Assembly: GCA_012646185.1 (NCBI GenBank)
Contig: GCA_012646185.1_4706.1
DNA: 64,000 nucleotides
From: a phage
Reading direction: 5' to 3' (one strand)
Shown in pieces: positions 1-29,071 of this stretch. Position 1 is the first letter of the stretch. The number at the start of each line of letters is the position of its first letter. The position numbers were made by a program, and so were the translations under genes. The notes beneath the pieces were generated by a model. That model was not told the origin of the DNA. It saw nothing but the letters and a program-made list of their open reading frames with translations, and did no database searches.

Positions 1-3000
1 CCAGAACCAATTATAACAGAATAACTAGCAGCTGTTACCGTTATAACCGAAATTACTGTTCCGCCAGCTCCTCCCCCAGCGCCAAAAAACGTTTCGCTGT
101 TGGAATAAGCCTGACAGCCACCGCCGCCACCGCCGCCACCGGTTATCGTTACTCTAATCCGTTTTGTTCCTTGTGTTGGGGTGTACGTCCCTGACGATGT
201 GAAAACACGCATATTCAGTAAACGCCCGACATATCCGCTAGAATCGGCTAAACCAAGATCTTTAGCTGCTAACGTGATATTAGCTGTACCATCAAACGGT
301 TTACCGTTAATCGTGCGCGCGGTCTGCAACTTCGTCGCCGTTGCTGCGTTTCCTGATGTGTTCTGGTTTCCCGCGGCGTTAACACCTGGCAGATTGATGT
401 TCGCACTACCATCAAAAGAAACCCCACCAATGGTGCGGGCTGTTTGCAGTTTTGTCGCTGTGGCGGCATTCCCCGTGGTATTTTGGTTTCCTGCGGTGTT
501 AACACCCGGCAGACTGATATTAGCCGTACCATCGAACGCAACACCGCCGATCGTCCTTGCTGTTTGCAGTTTTGTCGCCGTGGCGGCATTACCGGTTGTG
601 CCTTGGTTACCGGTGGTGTTTACCCCAGGTAGGTTGATATTTGCCGTACCGTCAAATGAAACGCCGCCTATCGTTCTTGCCGTTTGCAACTTCGTTGCGG
701 ATGCCGCATTCCCTGTGGTGTTTTGGTTACCTGTTGTATTCACACCTGGGATACTATCCTTAGATGTGTAGATCTGTGCCCATTCCGACCATTTCGCATC
801 GGTTGTATCGCGACGTGAACGTAAATAAGCCGGAGCGTGTGCGCCAGAGGTACCTGACCAACCAACGAGGATTTCACCTTCACCTACCGATGAAGCACCT
901 TTGAGGTGAATAACGTTACCATAGGCGGTTGGGTAGCCGTTACTGTACGCTTCATACATCTGGATACCGGTATTACTACCTTGGGTCGCATTAGCTAACG
1001 CGGTAACACGACCTTTGGAGGCGAGAGCGGTAATACTGAAGCTAATGTCCTTAGTACCGTCAAAGGCGACCCCATTAATCTTCCGTGCTGTTTGGAGTTT
1101 CGTGGCGGTAGCCGCATTACCAGAGGTACTCTGATTACCTGCTTTGTTCACGCCAGGCAAATCAATGTTGGCTGTTCCATCAAAGGACACGCCTCCTATG
1201 GTTCTCGCTGTCTGAAGTTTTGTTGCTGAGCCAGCGTTTCCGGAAGTACCTTGATTACCTGCCGCGTTGACACCTGGTAGGTTAATGCTAGCAGAGCCAT
1301 CAAAAGAAACTCCGCCGATCGTGATCGGTGTTTTCAATTTCGTGGCTGTCGCGGCGTTACCCGTCGTGTTCTGGTTGCCTGTCGCATTAACGCCAGGTAA
1401 TGCGACATCCGCTGTTCCGTCAAAGGCAACGCCACCGATTCTACGTGCAGTTTGTAGTTTGGTTGCACTAGCAGCGTTACCGCTGGTATTCTGGGTGCCA
1501 GCTTTGTTAACACCGGGGAGATCGATGTTAGCAGAACCATCGAAGCTGACGCCACCTATCGTTCTTGCGGTAGCGAGTTTAGCTGCTGTGGCTGCATTAT
1601 TACCCACTTTCAGCCAATCATCCCATGGACCATCCTGGCCGTTCCATGATGCCGTTAAACTACGTACGTAAATATTGCCGGTACGTACAGTGTAACGTTG
1701 CGTTCCACCGAATTGTCCAGCAGGGAGCACTTCAAGGTAACCTGCGGCATTTGCTTCAGGGAAATTGTGGGCGACGTCCGCGTTCGTTGATACTGGTTTA
1801 GACCAAATACCCACAGACGCTTCAACCGGACCGTAGGTATTCAGATTTGCGTCGGTGGGGAGCTGTCCTCGAAAACGCTGGAATAGTGTTGCCGATAACC
1901 GCAACAATGCTTGCATGCTTTCAATGCTAGATTGCTGCAGTAACGTCCGTGCTGTCGGTGTGATCGTCGCTAAATCAACCTTATTCGTATCGGTAAAATA
2001 CGGGAATTTGTTTGCTGATGTTGCTAAACCTGAAAAGGCGGTCAGTAATGCGTTAAGGGGCTGCTTCCCAGCTAACGCATTTGTTACCGTCGTTGCGAAA
2101 TTAGGATCACTTCCTATAGCTCGAGCCAGTTTATTAAGTGTATTTAGCGTCGCTGGAGACGAGTCGATCAACGCCGTGATCGCACGCATCACGAATTCCG
2201 TGTTGGCAATCTGTCGACTGCTGTCGTTCACTACAGCCGTAGGCGCTGCTGGGATACCGGTGAACACAGGGCTATTAAGATCTGCCTTGAGCGCGATGAG
2301 ACGTTTAAGTGCGTCGACATCGACTTTCAGGTTTTCCCATCCGATGAGAGAACCACCGCTGCTGGCATGGTAACGGTTGTACCAGAAGTCACCGTTAACG
2401 CCTAAAAAGAATATTCCCTTCTCTTCGTTTTGCGGGCCGGAACTATTTCGTGACGAGCTGATGTAATTGATTTCAATAAGACCAGTAAACGTCACTCCTG
2501 GGATTATTTTGTTGTCTCCAGCTGACTGTGATACCTGGTAAATCCCCGGGGTTGCGGCTTTAACCCATGTTAAGAATTCTGTTACTCCAGCGGTACCGCT
2601 AAAATTCTTAACGTCGGTAAGTATTGCCCCATAACCGAACATACCGGGTAGAGCCACTCGTCCGCCGGTACGGTCACGAATATCTGTCGCAACAACAGGC
2701 AATTGTTTACGAACGGCATTAACCGCCTTAGGTGTGGCCGATTTTGTCTCGTCGTCGCTATCGGTTTCATTACTTAGAATAGTTAAACCGCGTGTAGCAG
2801 TAGTTGCATCAGGAAGAAATGCGTTATCCAACACCTTAAGCTGTACTGCACTCGTATTACTAACAACGACATGCACCTGACAGTTAAGAACGCTGGTTGC
2901 ACCTTCGGCAGGCGTAGGCTTATATCTTTCTGGCGCACTGCAGACGGCAATCAGAACATCTTGGTCATCGTACAGACCGATCTCACGTACCCAGAACCCA

Positions 3001-3994: not shown

Positions 3995-6900
3995 TTAAAT
4001 TGTTGGTTTTACATCGCGTAATAGGGCAATATAATAGCCTAATCCTCGGAGGATCTCTCCACTCCAGAAACCAAAATACATTCCGTCTCTGCCGAGATTA
4101 GCGCTATCTGGTGCAGGACTCCACCCACCATTCATTACGTCATCAACGGTGTAATGGTTGATGTAGTTCTCAACGATTTCGTTATACGCATTAACAGCAA
4201 CAGAATAACCTTTATCGTTGGGATGTCCGTACAACATTGCTAACGACGCACCCGCCAACCATAATCCTGCCATATGACCAGTAAAATCATTAGGGATAAA
4301 AGCGGGAGGTTTATCCATCGGAAAATCCGTAGGAGATTGATAAGCGTTTTCCTGTTGATACGTAAACAAGAAATCAATCCAATGGCTGATGTAAGTGGTT
4401 AACTTCTCAGGGACGGCTAAACCACGATCGAGCAGTCCAGCATAAAGCCGCACCGCTGAAAAGAAAGCCCTCGGCTGATAACCAGACCATGCCGTCTGAT
4501 CGCCGAAGTGGTACATTGTAAAATCATTAACTTTTGATCCGCTTGGCGCATCCCAACGATCCCACACGTACGCACTTGCCCCCGGCCCTAAAACCCCGAA
4601 TTTCTGATAATACCACTGCTGCGAGTCATACCAGAAATTCACAACATTCTGAATCATGAGGTCACGTCGTTCAGTCGATACGTCCATATCCAGGAAGACC
4701 CATGGATGTTGGTAGCCGGGATAAGGCTGACCACGCCAACTGTCGAACGTCGGTGCGTTAGGGATATAGTTGTTAGAGAACGGAATAATACCCGGAGTAT
4801 AAGGCAACGGATCGAGACGTTGGTTGACAATCGTACAATCGCCAACACGTAATGTTCCCTCCGCCTCAAAGGTTGCTTTTAACGTAAACAGCATGGTATA
4901 TCCGTCATCCGTGGTGTAAGTTGACGGTGGATTGTTGATGGCGTAAAGCTTAAATACCCCTTCAGCGATATCGCTGTCGTCAGGCAAGAACAGAATTTCA
5001 GTTGATCCATCCCCCCACACAGGTGCAGAAGGTTTAGGGTCAGTATCAGCGTGGCCCGGTTGATACCCTGAGAGCCTCCATCCGTTCGCCGAAAGCGTCA
5101 ATGTATTTCTTGCTGTGGTGGCCGGTAGCATATACCACCATCGCCAACCATTTGCATCTTCTACACGAACGTTGTAGTCAATCGACGCGAAATAACTGAC
5201 CTGTCTTACGATCTGTTTTGCGGTTGGATTGAATTCAAATTGCCCGCCTGCCGCAGTAAGCTGCGCTTTTAAGAACAACCCATCCCAGGAATCTTCCGCT
5301 GCTTCGCTGAATTCGGTTGTGATGGCGACATCATCTTTCCAGCCGACTTTATCAGCCGATATCAACACAGAACCTGTAACAGCATCACCGGTTGGTGTTG
5401 AAGCTTCATCAACCGCATCAGCAGGAATCAACGAGCCTATTTTGAAATCCCATCCTTTCGGTTCAGCGCTGGAAGGTAATACCAGCTTGTACGTTTTGGC
5501 GTTCGCTTCGGTTTTGTCCAAAGAAAGCGATAATGAGATCTCAACCGGAATTGCAACACCCGCTGCATCTTTACCGCCGCAGGTTACACGAAGAATTGAA
5601 TCACGATTGACGCGGAACGGAATAGCCTGCTGTTCAAGGTAAATTTGTGCTGAAGATGCTTGAATCACAATCCAACCATCGGTATCACGCGTGATTGTGA
5701 ACGGTGCTTTCGATGGGTATGTATACGTGTAAGCGATACCGTCGGTGTCGTAACGATCGGTTCCTTTTACTTGACGGAAGAACTTATCGTTGGCGTCGAT
5801 ACGGGTATATTCTTCAATCGTAAACAAAGATGCCTTGTACGCTTTCTGATAACGCTCCTGCTGCGTTAAACGATATAAGGTGTAGGCTGCTTCACAAAAC
5901 CACTGTTCAGCGTCTGACGCGTTTCCCATGTAGTCTCTGGTGACCGGTACCTGGATCGGTCGGTTATGCTGACACTCGTTCGTTTTGATAAGGTATCCGC
6001 CATATTCAACAGGAACGCGGGGTGCCCACGCAACCAAATAAGAACCGTTGACGGATTTATCTTTGAGTACGATGGTACCTACTTCATCGTCAGTACACGC
6101 TTCAAGATCGTCCCCGTCAGCACTTACGTAACGTTTTGTGCGTAACGCAACTTTCTCGATAGGGAACACCGTACCCTTTGTATCCCAGTCAATCGTCCCA
6201 TCATCATTGGTTTTGAACACATCGGCGTTCAAATTCTGCCAGCCGAGTTTACCTTCATAGACCTGAACAACAAGATCCATGTATTCCCCGAACGTTGGTG
6301 TACCGTGTGTTATTTTCCCGATACCGTTGGTGAATGTAACCGCTGTGTCATGGAAACCCCCGTGTGTTGGGTAATCGTCTTTTGCAAGAGGATAATGGGC
6401 CAACACCGGTTGCTTACCATTAACGATCCAGTTAGCGATCCAGCGTGTCGGTGTATCCGGTGGTTCAAGGCCTGCGTAGAACGCTTTTATATACGCATCG
6501 AACGATGCCTCTGCTAATGTGAGATAATGCGCTTTAAGCTTGGTATCATCCGTTGTATGGCTGAATATACCCGCACCCAGAATTAACAACGACTGTCCTT
6601 CTGTTGTTGCGTCACCATCCGGTTGTGCTTCCTGTCGTGTTGCTGCAATGAAATGACGGTTGTTTACCATGACCCCGCTTTCATTTAACACGTAATGATC
6701 GGTTTCTGGGTCGGTAAACGTTCCTGTGTTTCGGGTTAAGAATCTTGCATGACCATAACCAACGAAATTAACCGGCGACGCTGTAATCATCCATTTACCG
6801 ATAAGTTGAGCAACATCATTATAACGCTCGGATGCGGTGATTTGTTTCACGTACCAGTCTTTATGGTTAAATGTCCAAAGCAGGAAGTAATAAGTTGTAT

Positions 6901-10897: not shown

Positions 10898-11395
10898 TTA
10901 CGTGTGTCGTCGTTTACCAAAGAAAATGTGGCTATCTACCACGGTGATATTGGTAGCATGTTTTCTGAAATGTTTAGGGCGAAGATGTTTCGCGTTAAAG
11001 AATACGGCTCCTCGTGTTGGGTCGGCTTTATGGTAAGCCGTAATGTCGGTATAACGTAATGTTGCGACCTCTCGTGCTATTGCTCTTGCTCGCTCAAAAG
11101 CAGCACGATCGCGTATGACAATACGCCTTTGTTTTGTCCAGGGGAATTGACCTCTTTGCAGTACGACGTCTTTGACGTTCGTAGGGAATCGGTAGTCCAT
11201 AGATCGATTATGTATTAAAAACGCCACGGAGTATTGCCCTTTTACAGATTCGCCTCTGGCTTCCATATACACAGCACATGCGACGATCTCTTTCCGGCAA
11301 TCGATTCTAGGCCCTGCGTTCACTGATGCTTGACTGAACGGTGTAATAAGCAACATAACAAGCCCTAAAATCAACGTGTGTAAAATACCTTGCAT
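10898..11395 (-). CDS. secreted cell wall hydrolase, SleB/CwlJ-like (Hydrolase_2 family), candidate endolysin
   Basis: Signal-peptide-like N-terminus MQGILHTLILGLVMLLITPFSQASV; motif MEARGESVKGQYSVAFLIHNRS...RFPTNVKDVVLQRGQFPW matches the SleB-type hydrolase signature. Confidence 0.65.
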   Translation of the reverse strand: MQGILHTLILGLVMLLITPFSQASVNAGPRIDCRKEIVACAVYMEARGESVKGQYSVAFLIHNRSMDYRFPTNVKDVVLQRGQFPWTKQRRIVIRDRAAFERARAIAREVATLRYTDITAYHKADPTRGAVFFNAKHLRPKHFRKHATNITVVDSHIFFGKRRHT

Positions 11396-11647
11396 CTTAA
11401 TAACCTCACGATAAGGTGCTGTCCACTGGCGTCTTGATAACGCATCCCGTCATCGGGTTGTTCTATTCAGCGGGCAGCAGGTTAGCGTCAGATGTTTGCC
11501 CGACATCCACGACAGAAATAAACGGTACTGAAATTACGGTCTCCTCTGGTTTGGCAATAAACATAACGTTGGATAACAGAACCCATTTCCCGCATCCAAC
11601 GCGGTAAAGGTGTACATCGTTTGAATTCATATAGTTTCTCAAAGATG

Positions 11648-12016
11648 TTAACCTCTACCGTCAAGCCATAGGTTGTATTTATCCCGAACATACGGATCGC
11701 GATAAATACGTCGATAGACTTGATGTGGTATAAACTTGCAATGTACGAGTTCGTCGCTTAATTTATGCCGTCGCTCCATACCGTTGTGAATACGACGTAT
11801 CTCCCGGATATTAAAGGTTGTTTTATTCAAGAGAATAGACATAATGGCAGATCGATGATCCAGATTAAAGATCGCCATCACGCTTCGTATCTCGCGTAAA
11901 ACAACTTCTCTATCGACAAGGATGCGATTAGTTAACTTAAGATTCTCCGTGATACCCATAACCTTCATCCTCGACACGTCGACACATCGGTAAAAATAAA
12001 CACCAGCTTGTTGCAC
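11648..12016 (-). CDS. hypothetical protein (122 aa)
   Basis: ORF co-oriented; overlaps next ORF. Confidence 0.45.
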   Translation of the reverse strand: MQQAGVYFYRCVDVSRMKVMGITENLKLTNRILVDREVVLREIRSVMAIFNLDHRSAIMSILLNKTTFNIREIRRIHNGMERRHKLSDELVHCKFIPHQVYRRIYRDPYVRDKYNLWLDGRG

Positions 12017-12308
12017 TGAGGATCGCCGTTGCGATGATATTTGCTATATCACTCAGTCGAGCATCGACCTGCCACATAACAAGCATGAAAAGAACGTACG
12101 CGAACCCATACACGACAAACCGTCTGATGTTACGCGTCGACCACGTACAAATATACAAAAGGGGAAGCTGCCCTATAACACAAACGATGGTTCGGATAAC
12201 GTAATAAACGCGTTCCGTCGTTGTTTCAAAATCGATATTCGTTGCAGAAATCCCAATCATTATAAAAGTGAAAATGAAATAGATTTTTGCGTATGTCTTT
12301 AAACTCAT
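11937..12308 (-). CDS. multi-pass membrane protein (123 aa), holin-like candidate
   Basis: Several hydrophobic segments (IYFIFTFIMIGISA, LPLLYICTW, VVYGFAYVLFMLVMW); lies in the lysis-like cluster. Confidence 0.5.
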   Translation of the reverse strand: MSLKTYAKIYFIFTFIMIGISATNIDFETTTERVYYVIRTIVCVIGQLPLLYICTWSTRNIRRFVVYGFAYVLFMLVMWQVDARLSDIANIIATAILSATSWCLFLPMCRRVEDEGYGYHGES

Positions 12309-12324
12309 GGCTTTTCCCGATCGT

Positions 12325-12519
12325 TTATTTGTGTTTTCCTACATTCCTCAACAAGGTAACGATAACGAATACCGCTATCATCAAGAAGACGAACCATAAC
12401 CCTACGTTAATTCGGGCAGCAGGTTCATCGACCATGAAGAACATCATCCCACAAAACCCAATGACCATCCATGCTAGAACCATCCCCGTTAATCCCCGTA
12501 GTAGCATATGTCCCATCAT
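12325..12519 (-). CDS. small two-TM membrane protein (~64 aa from revised start)
   Basis: Start moved to ATG at 12519 (MMGHMLL), preceded by GAAGGAG; hydrophobic segments LTGMVLAWMVIGFCGMMFF and LWFVFLMIAVFVIVTLL. Confidence 0.5.
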   Translation of the reverse strand: MMGHMLLRGLTGMVLAWMVIGFCGMMFFMVDEPAARINVGLWFVFLMIAVFVIVTLLRNVGKHK

Positions 12520-12692
12520 GAACTCCTTCCTACTTTTTCTGATAAAGCGATGATTCAAATTTTAGAAACACCGCTAACGCGAGTGCGATTAATAACGCAC
12601 GTACCCACATACCTCCTTGACAACTGTTGTACAACATAAAGACCAGAGCAATGCCGCCCATATGCAGGCGGCACTTATCGAACAATGTTGGT

Positions 12693-12920
12693 TTATACAT
12701 AAGAGATTAAACGTTGAATGATTTTTACTTTGCCTTTACCTGGACCTTTCTTGCGGCGATTCAACAGACGGATACTGTTTCCAGTTACGGTGTCGCCATC
12801 ATAATCAGCCTGGAACTGTGATAAAAAAGCAGGTTGTATCTGATCGACACCAGGATTGCTGTGGAAAGGATTGAGGCTTAAAAGAGGGTTAGCTGGAATC
12901 ATCGTATTGTCCTTACTCAA
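12693..12920 (-). CDS. hypothetical protein (75 aa)
   Basis: Short ORF, co-oriented; weak support. Confidence 0.35.
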   Translation of the reverse strand: MSKDNTMIPANPLLSLNPFHSNPGVDQIQPAFLSQFQADYDGDTVTGNSIRLLNRRKKGPGKGKVKIIQRLISYV

Positions 12921-25201: not shown

Positions 25202-26179
25202 TTACTTTTTCCTGAAAATTAATGTTGGTAAGCCGTTTCTTACAGCATAATACAACACTAAGAGGTTAATCTTGCCTGCGGATACCGTAAGCATTTTACG
25301 ACGACGTGGTAAACTAACCGGTACGGTAGATGCCATCGTTGCGCTGTTCTTGAACGTTTGGGAATAACGTCGCAGCGACGCTTCACCTAACAATGGAAGG
25401 AACAGATCCTCGGTAAGAATATCATCGCAGATATACGTAATCGCAAGTAACGGCGGATTCCACTCGTTCAGGAACTCGAAAATCTCGTTTGCAATACCCA
25501 GCGCGTTATTGGGAAGCGGAACCTCACGAACGTATTTCTGATTGCCTTTATCCAGCAGGATTCTTGACATACAGTAATCGTGGATTATACCCGCAACATC
25601 ATCCGCTGTTTCTGCGCTCTGCATCAACGCCTGTGCTTCTTCCCAGGTCAGTTGACGTTTTGTTTCGTAGTAGGTTGGTTTCAAAACCGCGTAAAAATCG
25701 TGGATTAAGCGACCAACGTCCCCACGGGTTTTCTCTGCCAACGCGATTGCGTACGCTTTCTTCTCCGCATCCGTTAAGATCTGATTACGCCACAGCTCGT
25801 ATTCGTCTAACAGCTCGGTGTATTTGGCTGTCCATTCAGAGGAAAGATAATAACCAATACTGTCAATCAACGCATGCGTTAAAACACCCAGACGCTCGCG
25901 TCTTGGATCGACCGACGGCTCATAGACGAAAGGCAGCTTCGGTTTTTCAAAGCCGCTGGCTACAACGGTATCTGAAAAAGCGTTAGCGAAAACACCCATC
26001 GGTTTCCACGACGTAAGGAGATCCTGATATAGCATTGGATGAACGTTATTAATCGCTGTGAGTTTATCATCGAAAAGACTCACGCTTGGATGTTCGGCAT
26101 TCGCGAGCTCAAAATAAATTCTTTCGAGCAACGCCTTTACCGCATCGCGTGTCTTATCGATTGGGCCAACAGAAGCCAT
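25202..26179 (-). CDS. hypothetical protein (325 aa)
   Basis: Long ORF, co-oriented. Confidence 0.6.
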   Translation of the reverse strand: MASVGPIDKTRDAVKALLERIYFELANAEHPSVSLFDDKLTAINNVHPMLYQDLLTSWKPMGVFANAFSDTVVASGFEKPKLPFVYEPSVDPRRERLGVLTHALIDSIGYYLSSEWTAKYTELLDEYELWRNQILTDAEKKAYAIALAEKTRGDVGRLIHDFYAVLKPTYYETKRQLTWEEAQALMQSAETADDVAGIIHDYCMSRILLDKGNQKYVREVPLPNNALGIANEIFEFLNEWNPPLLAITYICDDILTEDLFLPLLGEASLRRYSQTFKNSATMASTVPVSLPRRRKMLTVSAGKINLLVLYYAVRNGLPTLIFRKK

Positions 26180-26193
26180 GTAAATTATCCTCG

Positions 26194-26460
26194 TTAAAAA
26201 GTACCCATGATCGATAGGGCAATATGGTCTTTGTTCGCACGCGCTTGTAACGACATATCAAGACCGCTTTTCTTAATATGCCAACGTGCCACCAGTTCCG
26301 GTTGGTCAACGGAATACAGCCCTTCTCGATGTTGATTCAACCATTTAGCAATTGGATGCAATTTATCAGGATCGACCACACCCAATTCCAACCCACCGGG
26401 TGTTAATGGTTTAGAATAAAAGTCAAGTGCGTTCCGTAAAAAGTCATCCTCGATGCTCAT
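26194..26460 (-). CDS. hypothetical protein (88 aa)
   Basis: ORF; its ATG overlaps the stop of the small upstream ORF (ATGA). Confidence 0.5.
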   Translation of the reverse strand: MSIEDDFLRNALDFYSKPLTPGGLELGVVDPDKLHPIAKWLNQHREGLYSVDQPELVARWHIKKSGLDMSLQARANKDHIALSIMGTF

Positions 26461-26573
26461 CGTAGCATACCTGCCATGCCAATTACGGCAAACAGTACGC
26501 CGACGGCGCTATACGCAAGCAGCGCTTTAGCAACCCAAGATTTTATTTCCGTAAGCTCGTCATTATTCACCAT
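26457..26573 (-). CDS. small single-TM membrane protein (38 aa), not in the ORF track
   Basis: Manually translated MVNNDELTEIKSWVAKALLAYSAVGVLFAVIGMAGMLR; GAGGTG SD 4 nt before ATG at 26573; stop TGA overlaps ATG of 26194-26460. Confidence 0.4.
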   Translation of the reverse strand: MVNNDELTEIKSWVAKALLAYSAVGVLFAVIGMAGMLR

Positions 26574-26652
26574 GTTTCACCTCGTTCGGTTGTTGTCTGA
26601 TCTCATACCTTTACTTAAGCGTGTATCCCCGCCATTAAGACGGGGTGCTTAT

Positions 26653-27027
26653 TCACCAGAGACGATTACCTTCCTCGTCCCACCAAGCAATCGCTCGTGT
26701 CGACTCGAATGTGTTAGGGCGTAATGTCATACCCTTGCGGTCAACGATTAACCGCAACTCAGTACCGAACCACTCAATCGAGATAAACAAACCCTTCCGA
26801 ATGATTGCTTGATAACCTGATAACCGCTCAAAGAGTCGTTGAAAAATCTCATCATGTTCGCACGACACTAATGCTTCTGAATAGCGTCGCATCGCTTTTG
26901 CATCGCTAGGTAAGCGTGTTTTACAGTCCCACCATAACACAGCGTACATCAATGCGGCATTACGCAATCGTAACGATTGAACTGGCGTTAGTTGTCGTCC
27001 TTCAACATCATCGATAATAACGTACAT
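26653..27027 (-). CDS. hypothetical protein (124 aa)
   Basis: ORF, co-oriented. Confidence 0.5.
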   Translation of the reverse strand: MYVIIDDVEGRQLTPVQSLRLRNAALMYAVLWWDCKTRLPSDAKAMRRYSEALVSCEHDEIFQRLFERLSGYQAIIRKGLFISIEWFGTELRLIVDRKGMTLRPNTFESTRAIAWWDEEGNRLW

Positions 27028-27033
27028 TGCGTT

Positions 27034-27288
27034 TTATTCCGCGTTTGTTTCCTTAACATGGACACATTCCGCATCGATAGTCACACCGGTAGAACGATGG
27101 GTCTCGCTGGTAGAATCAAATCCGCTGTTGAACAACATGGCGAACGTGTTATTATCCATACGAGCAAAGGTCTCCGCAATACGATCGGGATGAAAATCGG
27201 TGCGGTTGATGGTCGATTTCACAAAAACTCCTATAAACAATTTAATTATTGGTATTAAGATTAAAGCAGGATCTGCGGACAGCAGCAT
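27034..27288 (-). CDS. hypothetical protein (84 aa)
   Basis: Fills gap between neighbours; overlaps next gene by 28 nt. Confidence 0.35.
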   Translation of the reverse strand: MLLSADPALILIPIIKLFIGVFVKSTINRTDFHPDRIAETFARMDNNTFAMLFNSGFDSTSETHRSTGVTIDAECVHVKETNAE

Positions 27289-28702: not shown

Positions 28703-29071
28703 TTATTTATCGGGGTCTGGAAAATAGTAAAATCGCCAATGCAACATAGAGATCGCATTTCTTATTCGATTCGCACGAACACGGCGTCCGAGAAAGGACT
28801 TATAGCAAGAATCGCAATCCATAAACAACTCATGGCTCGATTTCATCAGAACCACGATATCTCTTATATACGAATTGCAGTACTCGATAAACGGGTCTGT
28901 ATCGTACGTATATTTCCTCGCACTACCTATCCCCAACTCTCTATTTAACTCACGACAATTTATCATGAGCTTCACATAACGGATAAGCCGAACGAAGTCA
29001 CGTAAATTACGATTAAACCAATATCGATACCAAAATGACTGTATACTCCGAACAGTTCTATTTAACTTCAT
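28703..29071 (-). CDS. hypothetical protein (122 aa)
   Basis: ORF, co-oriented. Confidence 0.45.
   Translation of the reverse strand: MKLNRTVRSIQSFWYRYWFNRNLRDFVRLIRYVKLMINCRELNRELGIGSARKYTYDTDPFIEYCNSYIRDIVVLMKSSHELFMDCDSCYKSFLGRRVRANRIRNAISMLHWRFYYFPDPDK

What the first reader, a model, noticed from the sequence alone, without database searches (positions are those of the whole stretch)
26457..26573. Unannotated 38-aa single-TM protein translationally coupled to the next gene
Manual translation gives MVNNDELTEIKSWVAKALLAYSAVGVLFAVIGMAGMLR with a GAGGTG Shine-Dalgarno 4 nt before the ATG. Its TGA overlaps the ATG of the downstream gene in an ATGA arrangement. It is below the 60-aa cutoff of the ORF track. 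Small membrane peptides in phages are often holin-like, antiholin or host-takeover factors.
Basis: seen in the sequence. Interest (0 to 1): 0.45.

Follow-up and report, generated by a model that had tools for sequence, protein, structure and literature searches.

The report
Conserved 38-aa membrane peptide gene
The 38-codon reading frame is a genuine, strongly conserved gene for a tiny single-helix membrane-type protein of Goslar-like jumbo phages (already listed as hypothetical protein gp128 in phage Goslar), sitting first in a conserved three-gene unit that ends with the virion collar-filament protein; its function is still unknown and it is probably not a holin.

Summary
On the minus strand, 26573..26457 encodes MVNNDELTEIKSWVAKALLAYSAVGVLFAVIGMAGMLR. 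It has GAGGTG 4 nt upstream, and its TGA overlaps the ATG of an 88-aa gene (ATGA).

The window is about 96% identical to the nucleus-forming jumbo phage Goslar, where the orthologue is annotated as gp128 (hypothetical).

The gene is real:
- All 26 fetched loci keep the SD, the 38-codon length and the ATGA overlap.
- Indels occur only in the upstream spacer.
- Variable sites fall 5/5/22 by codon position.
- pN/pS is 0.17–0.19, similar to the neighbouring genes.

AlphaFold predicts a single helix (residues 4–37, pLDDT 90.8), with a hydrophobic stretch at 17–37.

The family is confined to Goslarvirus: one cluster among 1.84 billion representatives, and no Pfam, PHROG or NCBIfam match.

The gene is the first cistron of a conserved unit, gp128–gp127–gp126. 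gp126 is the virion collar-filament protein. The unit is preceded by a conserved hairpin and an invariant 22-nt block carrying a phiKZ-type TATG late-promoter motif.

A holin role is unlikely. The endolysin, with its own adjacent membrane proteins, lies about 15 kb away. Function remains unknown and interest is modest.

The parts
26457..26573 (-). 38-aa ORF, orthologue of Goslar gp128. Polar N-terminal third (residues 1-16, with E6, E9, I10, K11 and K16 invariant and W13 nearly invariant), hydrophobic helix at 17-37, C-terminal R38.
   Evidence: sequence; Goslar gp128; purifying selection; intact in all loci; hydrophobic single helix; per-position variation.
26578..26583 (-). Shine-Dalgarno GAGGTG (GGGGTG in some lineages), 4 nt from the ATG here and 4-9 nt in relatives because an A-run varies in length.
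   Evidence: 'GAGGT' is also the usual SD of other Goslar genes.
26457..26460 (-). ATGA stop/start overlap between the 38-aa gene and the 88-aa gene (a translational-coupling arrangement).
   Evidence: invariant in all loci. Actual coupling was not tested.
26194..26460 (-). 88-aa gene (Goslar gp127 orthologue). No TM segment stood out in the hydrophobicity scan and there is no family match. Restricted to the same phage lineage.
   Evidence: The AF2 model is low confidence.
25202..26179 (-). 325-aa gene, orthologue of Goslar gp126, the virion collar / collar-filament protein. It starts 14 nt after the 88-aa gene.
   Evidence: identity of gp126 = YP_009820811.1 as the collar protein from bioRxiv 10.64898/2026.04.21.720040.
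26593..26614 (-). Invariant 22-nt block GTAAAGGTATGAGATCAGACAA in the spacer. It contains TATG (26607..26604), with the G 31 nt upstream of the ATG. Candidate phiKZ-type late (nvRNAP) promoter / 5' UTR start.
   Evidence: invariant although synonymous sites nearby are 20-57% diverged; phiKZ TATG consensus; TATG enriched at -46..-30 upstream of Goslar operon leaders, p=0.009, post hoc. The TSS was not measured.
26627..26645 (-). Conserved GC-rich hairpin CCCCGTC-TTAAT-GGCGGGG just after the stop of the upstream 124-aa gene, with no U-run after it. Candidate terminator or RNA-end structure separating transcription units.
   Evidence: The stem is kept through an A/G change opposite T (T-A versus T-G). 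It is not called by the canonical terminator scan.
26653..27027 (-). 124-aa upstream gene (Goslar gp129 orthologue), which always precedes the unit.

Best explanation
This is a genuine protein-coding gene, the orthologue of Goslar gp128. It makes a 38-residue, single-alpha-helix protein whose C-terminal 21 residues form a membrane-spanning segment. Because the hydrophobic segment ends one residue before the C-terminus, it must leave the ribosome before it can insert. I therefore infer post-translational, tail-anchor-style insertion into the E. coli inner membrane. The most likely topology has the polar, conserved N-terminal segment (E9-I-K-x-W13-x-x-K16) in the cytoplasm. The gene is the first cistron of a lineage-specific, order-conserved unit gp128-gp127-gp126. 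In that unit its stop overlaps the start of the 88-aa gp127, and the collar-filament protein gp126 follows 14 nt later. I infer that the unit is transcribed late from a phiKZ-type TATG promoter inside the invariant spacer block. I also infer that the peptide acts as a membrane-embedded partner or tether for the co-produced gp127, packing through its invariant small-residue face S22/G25/A29/G32, rather than acting as a holin. Shown: coding status, conservation, helix and hydrophobicity, gene order, the overlap, and the conserved spacer elements. Inferred: membrane insertion and topology, late timing, and partnership with gp127.
For: Coding status: the ORF is intact with SD and ATGA in every locus. 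There are no indels inside it, while the spacer has several. Codon-position bias is 5/5/22, p=4.5e-5, and pN/pS is 0.19. Against the most divergent lineage pN/pS is 0.17 with pS=0.57, which is tighter than the collar protein at 0.30. The other sense frames contain stops and have pN/pS near 1. The antisense shadow ORF is broken by spacer indels. Structure: hydrophobic window 17-37 with KD 2.1; AF2 single helix 4-37, pLDDT 90.8. All 35 variants examined are exactly 38 aa (about 50 distinct sequences sit in the three clusters), and TM changes are conservative only (I/V/M/L/A). Module: the order 124-38-88-325 aa and the 4-nt overlap are identical in all long loci, while flanking genes vary. gp126 is the collar-filament protein. 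gp128, gp127 and gp126 have the same narrow distribution, Goslarvirus only. Regulation: the invariant 22-nt block carries TATG 31 nt before the ATG. The phiKZ late consensus is TATG with G as +1 (PMC4666361). The same placement occurs upstream of the sheath gene and other structural operon leaders.
Against: There is no direct evidence of translation, membrane location, topology or timing. The peptide and gp127 were not found in the virion mass-spectrometry table, but that file is truncated and the peptide is a poor tryptic target. The summed Hessa-type insertion energy is about 0 kcal/mol, which is borderline rather than strongly favourable. Clustering of invariant TM positions on one helical face is not significant (p=0.08). 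The TATG enrichment test used a window chosen after looking at the data. The extended 15-mer of the block occurs nowhere else in the window. The partner's structure could not be modelled (pLDDT 48.6), so nothing supports a physical gp128-gp127 contact beyond gene arrangement. Gene neighbourhood in a 70-gene co-oriented block is weak evidence of shared function.
Confidence: 0.45

Rival explanations
1. Host-directed small membrane effector. The peptide inserts into the inner membrane and binds or perturbs a host membrane protein or the membrane itself, for example by depolarisation, superinfection exclusion or inhibition of an envelope enzyme. It would work like bacterial small membrane regulators, type I toxins or the 37-aa LysM of ssRNA phages, independently of gp127 and gp126.
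For: The size, the single TM and the invariant small-residue positions fit peptides that pack against other TM helices. This rests on my own knowledge of AcrZ, MgrB, TisB and LysM. The gene sits in a long block of mostly uncharacterised non-structural genes.
Against: There is no sequence relation to any such family. The strict, invariant coupling to gp127 and the fixed position in front of a structural gene are unexplained by this reading. No toxicity or antisense-RNA control is known.
Confidence: 0.2
2. Lysis-timing component (holin, antiholin or holin modulator).
For: It is a small single-TM phage protein. Likely late expression, if the TATG promoter is real, would fit lysis timing.
Against: The endolysin lies about 15 kb away (10898..11395; PHROG endolysin E=4e-16). 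It carries its own N-terminal hydrophobic segment and is flanked by a 63-aa two-TM protein with a basic C-terminus, a 123-aa multi-TM protein and a 56-aa TM protein. These are far better lysis candidates. The 38-aa peptide has no charged cytoplasmic tail after the TM and is shorter than characterised holins (own knowledge). There are no lysis-family matches.
Confidence: 0.1
3. Not a membrane protein. The hydrophobic helix is buried in a soluble complex, for example as a clamp or core helix of gp127 or an assembly chaperone complex for the collar filament, or it is a minor virion component.
For: The insertion energy is borderline. The stoichiometric coupling to gp127 and the proximity to the collar gene fit this. 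Neighbouring gp124 and gp125 are detected at trace level in virions.
Against: Twenty-one consecutive uncharged residues flanked by K16 and R38 are typical of a TM span. The peptide was not modelled among the 28 structural proteins or mentioned in the virion study, and it was not found in the MS table (the table is truncated).
Confidence: 0.12
4. A translated leader only. The ORF exists to bring ribosomes to the gp127 start, and the peptide itself is irrelevant. Alternatively, it is a chance ORF.
For: The ATGA overlap, and a G-rich SD-like stretch for gp127 lying inside the 3' end of the ORF.
Against: The amino-acid sequence is under purifying selection as strong as in neighbouring genes. pN/pS is 0.17-0.19, with pS up to 0.57. 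Length is fixed at 38 codons in every variant examined, and replacements are conservative only. A pure leader would drift at non-synonymous sites.
Confidence: 0.04

Closest known systems
Escherichia phage vB_EcoM_Goslar gp128 (YP_009820813.1 / QBO63921.1), hypothetical protein
   Same: Orthologue. It has 38 aa, 34/38 identical residues, the same position between gp129 and gp127, and the same SD and ATGA overlap.
   Different: Four substitutions (D5E, L7Y, V26I, A34V). A34 in the window is unique among the 35 variants examined. Nothing is known about the function of gp128 itself.
Bacterial small inner-membrane proteins and type I toxins (e.g. AcrZ, MgrB, CydX, TisB, Hok); own knowledge
   Same: Fewer than 50 aa and a single TM helix. 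They act by packing against other membrane proteins or by oligomerising. They are often missed by annotation.
   Different: There is no sequence relation. Here the TM is at the extreme C-terminus (tail-anchor layout), whereas many of those have an N-terminal TM and a cytoplasmic tail. There is no antisense-RNA control, and the gene is phage-encoded and coupled to a downstream gene.
Holins / pinholins (e.g. lambda S105, phage 21 S68, T7 gp17.5); own knowledge
   Same: A small phage-encoded membrane helix with Gly/Ala/Ser-rich packing positions.
   Different: There is no charged C-terminal cytoplasmic domain, it is not next to the endolysin, and it is shorter than characterised holins. Better candidates sit beside the endolysin.
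Single-gene lysis peptide LysM of ssRNA phage M (37 aa, MurJ inhibitor); own knowledge
   Same: Nearly identical size, and a single TM helix that works by binding a host membrane protein.
   Different: It comes from an unrelated virus type, there is no sequence similarity, and this jumbo phage has a conventional endolysin.
phiKZ late (nvRNAP) promoters, TATG with G as +1 (PMC4666361)
   Same: TATG lies in an invariant block 31 nt upstream of the start codon. Conserved sequence downstream of TATG is also required in phiKZ. The placement is the same upstream of Goslar structural genes.
   Different: No TSS data are available for this locus. TATG is short and frequent, and Goslar promoter rules have not been defined.

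Membership tests
Goslarvirus gp128 orthologous group | 38-aa length and high sequence identity to Goslar gp128 | tested here: met
   89.5% identity over 38/38 residues. All 35 variants examined are 38 aa.
Goslarvirus gp128 orthologous group | Conserved position between the 124-aa (gp129) and 88-aa (gp127) genes, with a 4-nt overlap to the latter | tested here: met
Single-pass (tail-anchor-type) inner-membrane protein | One hydrophobic helix of about 20 residues, near the C-terminus | tested here: met
   KD 2.1 over residues 17-37; AF2 helix 4-37, pLDDT 90.8.
Single-pass (tail-anchor-type) inner-membrane protein | Actual membrane insertion, with the N-terminus in the cytoplasm | not testable with these tools
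   Needs fractionation or topology reporters. The charge balance is weak: K11 and K16 against R38, with three acidic residues in the N-tail.
Holin | Gene adjacent to, or in a cassette with, the endolysin | tested here: not met
   The endolysin is at 10898..11395, about 15 kb away, with other TM proteins next to it.
Holin | TM domain(s) followed by a charged cytoplasmic C-terminal tail | tested here: not met
   Only R38 follows the TM.
Holin | Timed lethal hole formation that releases or activates the endolysin | not testable with these tools
   Requires expression and lysis assays.
Type I toxin-like small membrane toxin | Match to a known toxin family, or an antisense RNA antitoxin | tested here: not met
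   No Pfam, NCBIfam or Rfam hit. The antisense ORF is a non-conserved shadow.
Translationally coupled gene pair | Stop codon of the upstream gene overlapping the start codon of the downstream gene | tested here: met
   ATGA at 26457..26460, invariant in all loci.
Translationally coupled gene pair | Downstream translation depends on upstream translation | not testable with these tools
   Needs reporter fusions with an upstream stop or start mutation. gp127 also has its own weak G-rich SD-like stretch.
phiKZ-type late promoter | TATG motif at the transcription start (G = +1) | tested here: inconclusive
   The motif is present and invariant, and positional enrichment gives p=0.009 post hoc. The TSS is unknown.

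The most novel reading that the evidence does not exclude
The peptide could be the membrane anchor of a previously unrecognised late assembly or staging step in a nucleus-forming phage. Together with gp127 it would hold or chaperone the Goslar-specific collar-filament protein gp126, or nascent tails and necks, at the inner membrane. Alternatively, it could be a new 38-aa envelope effector unique to Goslarvirus.
Probability: 0.15. Interest if true: 0.55.

Novelty: new member of a known kind. Interest (0 to 1): 0.3.

Why it matters
Small membrane peptides are systematically under-annotated. This one is missed in some Goslarvirus annotations even though it evolves under tighter constraint than the structural gene beside it. 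Goslar is the E. coli model for nucleus-forming jumbo phages, and its membrane-associated steps (capsid assembly at the membrane, lysis) have no assigned membrane proteins. A conserved, lineage-specific peptide that is coupled to an 88-aa partner and co-located with the newly described collar-filament gene is a concrete, cheap target for knock-down and tagging. On present evidence, however, it is an ordinary orphan small protein of unknown function.

Tried and rejected
1. Family searches of the peptide and its neighbours against PHROGs, Pfam, NCBIfam and PDB sequences found nothing.
2. An exhaustive HMMER search of 1.84 billion representatives returned only the peptide's own cluster.
3. tblastn of the peptide and of the collar protein against 50,697 phage records hit only Goslar.
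4. AF2 of the 88-aa partner gave pLDDT 48.6, so no fold search was attempted. A fold search with a lone helix would be meaningless and was not run.
5. Rfam found no match on the spacer. The sigma-70 promoter and canonical terminator scans found nothing on the coding strand at the spacer.
6. The spacer 15-mer and AGGTATGA are unique in the window, so this is not a repeated extended promoter motif.
7. The antisense 82-aa ORF (26476..26724, + strand) is wobble-aligned and so shares the codon-position signal. I rejected it because spacer indels frameshift or truncate it in several lineages.
8. Helical-face clustering of invariant residues is only a trend (p=0.08).
9. The per-gene Goslar RNA-seq table (Supplementary Table 2 of 10.1101/2023.09.20.558163) is not held, so expression timing could not be read.
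10. The virion MS table has no gp128 or gp127 entry, but the file is truncated.
11. The genome-contig scan with the spacer probe returned nothing.
12. The literature hit for 'gp128' refers to phiKZ gp128, an unrelated protein.

Full report
**1. The observation**

Reading the window and listing ORFs shows the feature on the minus strand.
- The ATG is at 26573..26571 and the TGA at 26459..26457.
- The frame has 38 codons and gives exactly MVNNDELTEIKSWVAKALLAYSAVGVLFAVIGMAGMLR.
- GAGGTG lies at 26583..26578, followed by AAAC and then the ATG.
- The + strand reads tcat at 26457..26460. On the minus strand this is ATGA, so the stop overlaps the ATG of the 88-aa ORF 26460..26194.

**2. What genome this is, and whether the ORF is annotated**

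The region is 96.2% identical to Escherichia phage vB_EcoM_Goslar, a nucleus-forming jumbo phage (Chimalliviridae, genus Goslarvirus). Both the GenBank and RefSeq records annotate the orthologous 117-nt ORF as gp128, a hypothetical protein (QBO63921.1 / YP_009820813.1).

Automated gene calls do omit it in several relatives, even though the frame is intact there. Examples are L005 and L006, and the Salmonella-assembly contig L017 together with L018.

**3. Is it a real gene?**

I collected relatives in four ways:
- through the neighbouring proteins;
- through the peptide's own clusters;
- with the invariant spacer block as a DNA probe;
- from the annotated Goslar record itself.

All 26 loci, about 17 independent contigs that are mostly ~240-kb phage genomes, keep four features: an SD (GAGGTG or GGGGTG), a 4-9 nt spacing, exactly 38 codons, and the ATGA overlap.

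In an 11-lineage alignment of the whole module, indels near the ORF occur only in the upstream spacer and never inside the ORF. The remaining gap columns lie about 140 codons into the collar gene, close to the end of the short contig L005, and I did not examine them further.

Variable sites fall 5/5/22 by codon position (p=4.5e-5). Summed pairwise pN/pS is 0.19. The comparison values are 0.13 for gp129, 0.16 for gp127 and 0.07 for gp126. The two other sense frames have stops and ratios near 1.

Against the most divergent lineage (L017), the collar protein is only 68% identical. There the peptide is 84% identical, with pS=0.57 and pN/pS=0.17.

One caveat needed a separate test. The + strand ORF 26476..26724 (82 aa) is wobble-aligned with the peptide frame, so it shares the codon-position signal. 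It is nonetheless frameshifted or truncated by spacer indels in several lineages, with lengths from 41 to over 100 aa. I treat it as a shadow ORF. The gene is real.

**4. The protein**

A 21-residue window at 17-37 has mean Kyte-Doolittle hydropathy 2.1 and a summed Hessa-type energy near 0 kcal/mol, which is borderline to acceptable. It is flanked by K16 and R38.

AlphaFold2, given a 23-sequence family alignment, predicts one continuous helix at residues 4-37 with mean pLDDT 90.8.

Across 35 distinct variants:
- residues 3-5, 7 and 8 vary freely;
- E6, E9, I10, K11, A15, K16, L18-S22, G25, A29, G32, L37 and R38 are invariant;
- S12, W13, V14, A17, F28, I31 and G35 each change in only one or two variants;
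- the other TM positions change only among I, V, L, M, A and T.

S22, G25, A29 and G32 lie within an 80-degree arc of the helix. That would suit helix-helix packing, but the clustering test is not significant (p=0.08).

The hydrophobic segment ends one residue from the C-terminus, so it cannot engage a co-translational pathway. From general knowledge of tail-anchored and small membrane proteins, I infer post-translational insertion. The N-terminus is probably cytoplasmic, but the charge bias is weak.

**5. Distribution**

An exhaustive HMMER search of 1.84 billion representative proteins finds only the peptide's own cluster. Exact look-ups show about 50 distinct sequences on hundreds of contigs. 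The 35 sequences I examined are all 38 aa.

The 88-aa partner and the 325-aa protein are equally restricted. No Pfam, PHROG, NCBIfam or PDB-sequence match exists for the peptide or its neighbours.

The many contigs fit a recent report that Goslarvirus expanded from 1 to 237 genomes found in E. coli, Salmonella and Shigella assemblies (10.1101/2025.05.06.652010).

**6. Context**

The gene lies in a run of about 70 co-oriented genes between the thymidylate synthase and DNA ligase genes. Its immediate module is 124 aa, then a spacer, then 38 aa, 88 aa and 325 aa. Order, sizes and the 4-nt overlap are constant, while flanking genes come and go.

The 325-aa protein is Goslar gp126 (YP_009820811.1). 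A 2026 cryo-EM study identifies it as the collar and collar-filament protein around the neck, a structure absent from phiKZ (10.64898/2026.04.21.720040). gp128 and gp127 are not in that study's virion MS table. gp124 and gp125 appear at single-peptide level. The stored table is truncated, and the peptide is a poor tryptic target.

**7. The spacer**

The 79-nt spacer is more conserved at the nucleotide level than the peptide's own coding sequence, 87% against 79% versus L017. It contains, in order:
- a 7-bp GC-rich hairpin (26627..26645) right after the gp129 stop, with no U-run, whose pairing is kept through an A/G change opposite T;
- a short variable linker;
- an invariant 22-nt block GTAAAGGTATGAGATCAGACAA (26593..26614);
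- the SD, and an A-run whose length varies.

The block contains TATG, with its G 31 nt upstream of the ATG. In phiKZ, late promoters of the non-virion RNA polymerase are defined by TATG with the G as +1, and they also require downstream sequence (PMC4666361).

In Goslar, TATG occurs 30-46 nt upstream of the start codon in 11 of 41 operon-leading genes. These include the sheath gene gp218, gp213, gp215, gp208, gp202 and the structural gene gp188. That is a 2.6-fold enrichment over other upstream positions, Fisher p=0.009. The window was chosen after inspection, so I treat this as suggestive only. The extended block is not repeated elsewhere in the window, and Rfam has no match.

The gaps between gp128, gp127 and gp126 are -4 and 14 nt. 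This spacer is therefore the only nearby non-coding DNA that could hold a dedicated promoter for the collar gene. That is the basis for inferring a late gp128-gp127-gp126 transcription unit.

**8. The holin idea**

The window's endolysin is at 10898..11395 (SleB/Hydrolase_2 type; PHROG endolysin E=4e-16). It has an N-terminal hydrophobic segment. Immediately upstream lie three ORFs:
- a 123-aa multi-TM ORF (11937..12308);
- a 63-aa two-TM protein with a basic C-terminus (within 12325..12558);
- a 56-aa TM ORF (12530..12700).

These are much better lysis candidates. The 38-aa peptide is about 15 kb away, has no charged tail after its TM, and is shorter than characterised holins (own knowledge). 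I put a lysis role at about 0.1.

**9. Most likely mechanism, with rivals**

| Claim | My estimate |
|---|---|
| Real, translated small protein gene | about 0.9 |
| Inserts in the inner membrane | about 0.7 |
| Expressed late from the TATG block together with gp127 and gp126 | about 0.5 |
| Works as a membrane-embedded partner or tether of gp127 | about 0.35-0.4 |
| Is involved in collar or neck assembly | about 0.15 |

The rivals are a host-directed small membrane effector (0.2), a buried helix of a soluble complex or minor virion component (0.12), a lysis-timing component (0.1), and a mere translated leader or chance ORF (0.04; contradicted by amino-acid-level selection).

**10. Comparison with known things, and novelty**

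It is a member of the Goslar gp128 orthologous group (tested and met). It resembles bacterial small membrane proteins, type I toxins and the 37-aa LysM only in size and layout, without sequence relation. It fails two defining holin features. It shows the genetic arrangement of translational coupling, but dependence was not tested.

It is a new, uncharacterised member of a known kind (small phage membrane peptides) and is already present in the database as a hypothetical protein. Interest is modest at 0.3. The value lies in a clean, conserved, testable candidate in the E. coli model for nucleus-forming phages, and in the linked observation of a conserved hairpin plus TATG block in front of the collar-filament unit.

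Noticed in passing
window 10898..12700 (minus strand): Probable lysis cassette. It holds a 165-aa SleB-type endolysin with an N-terminal hydrophobic (signal/SAR-like) segment (10898..11395). Directly upstream are a 123-aa multi-TM ORF (11937..12308), a 63-aa two-TM protein with a basic C-terminus (MGHMLLRG...RNVGKHK, inside 12325..12558) and a 56-aa TM ORF (12530..12700). None of the three membrane ORFs has a PHROG match.
   Followed up: partly
window 26574..26577 and the same place in L010-L015, L021: The run of A between the SD and the ATG of the 38-aa gene varies from 4 to 9 nt among lineages (AAAC up to nine A). This homopolymer could tune translation initiation, or it could reflect slippage or assembly noise.
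   Followed up: partly
window 26476..26724 (+ strand): An 82-aa antisense ORF overlaps the peptide gene, the spacer and the end of the 124-aa gene. It is wobble-aligned with the peptide frame, so it mimics coding conservation. Spacer indels frameshift or truncate it in several relatives, so it is a shadow ORF.
   Followed up: yes
L009 and L016 (Goslar intergenic regions upstream of gp097, gp122, gp156, gp202, among others): A recurrent composite: a GC-rich hairpin followed immediately by (T)TTATGC(T/C)G. This suggests a terminator hairpin abutting a TATG-type start. More generally, TATG is enriched 30-46 nt upstream of operon-leading start codons.
   Followed up: partly
window 28703..29071 (minus strand): A 122-aa ORF fills the 366-nt gap that the Goslar RefSeq record leaves unannotated between gp134 and gp135. 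Gene callers do call it in several relatives, for example L007 2414..2779 and L010 1503..1871.
   Followed up: no
window 27034..27288 (minus strand): The gp130-like ORF (84 aa) has a hydrophobic N-terminal stretch that overlaps the 3' end of the DUF4262 gene. In several relatives a 62-aa version with a later start is called instead, so the true start and the apparent TM segment are uncertain.
   Followed up: no
L010-L014, downstream of the collar gene (locus coordinates about 5788..6615): Some lineages carry a D12-class DNA methyltransferase gene (PF02086) after the gp125 homologue, where Goslar, L015 and this window have a 106-aa gene. This shows gene turnover right next to the invariant 38-88-325 module.
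   Followed up: no
window 26472..26474 (codon 34 of the peptide): The window's peptide has Ala at position 34. The other 34 distinct variants examined all have Val.
   Followed up: yes
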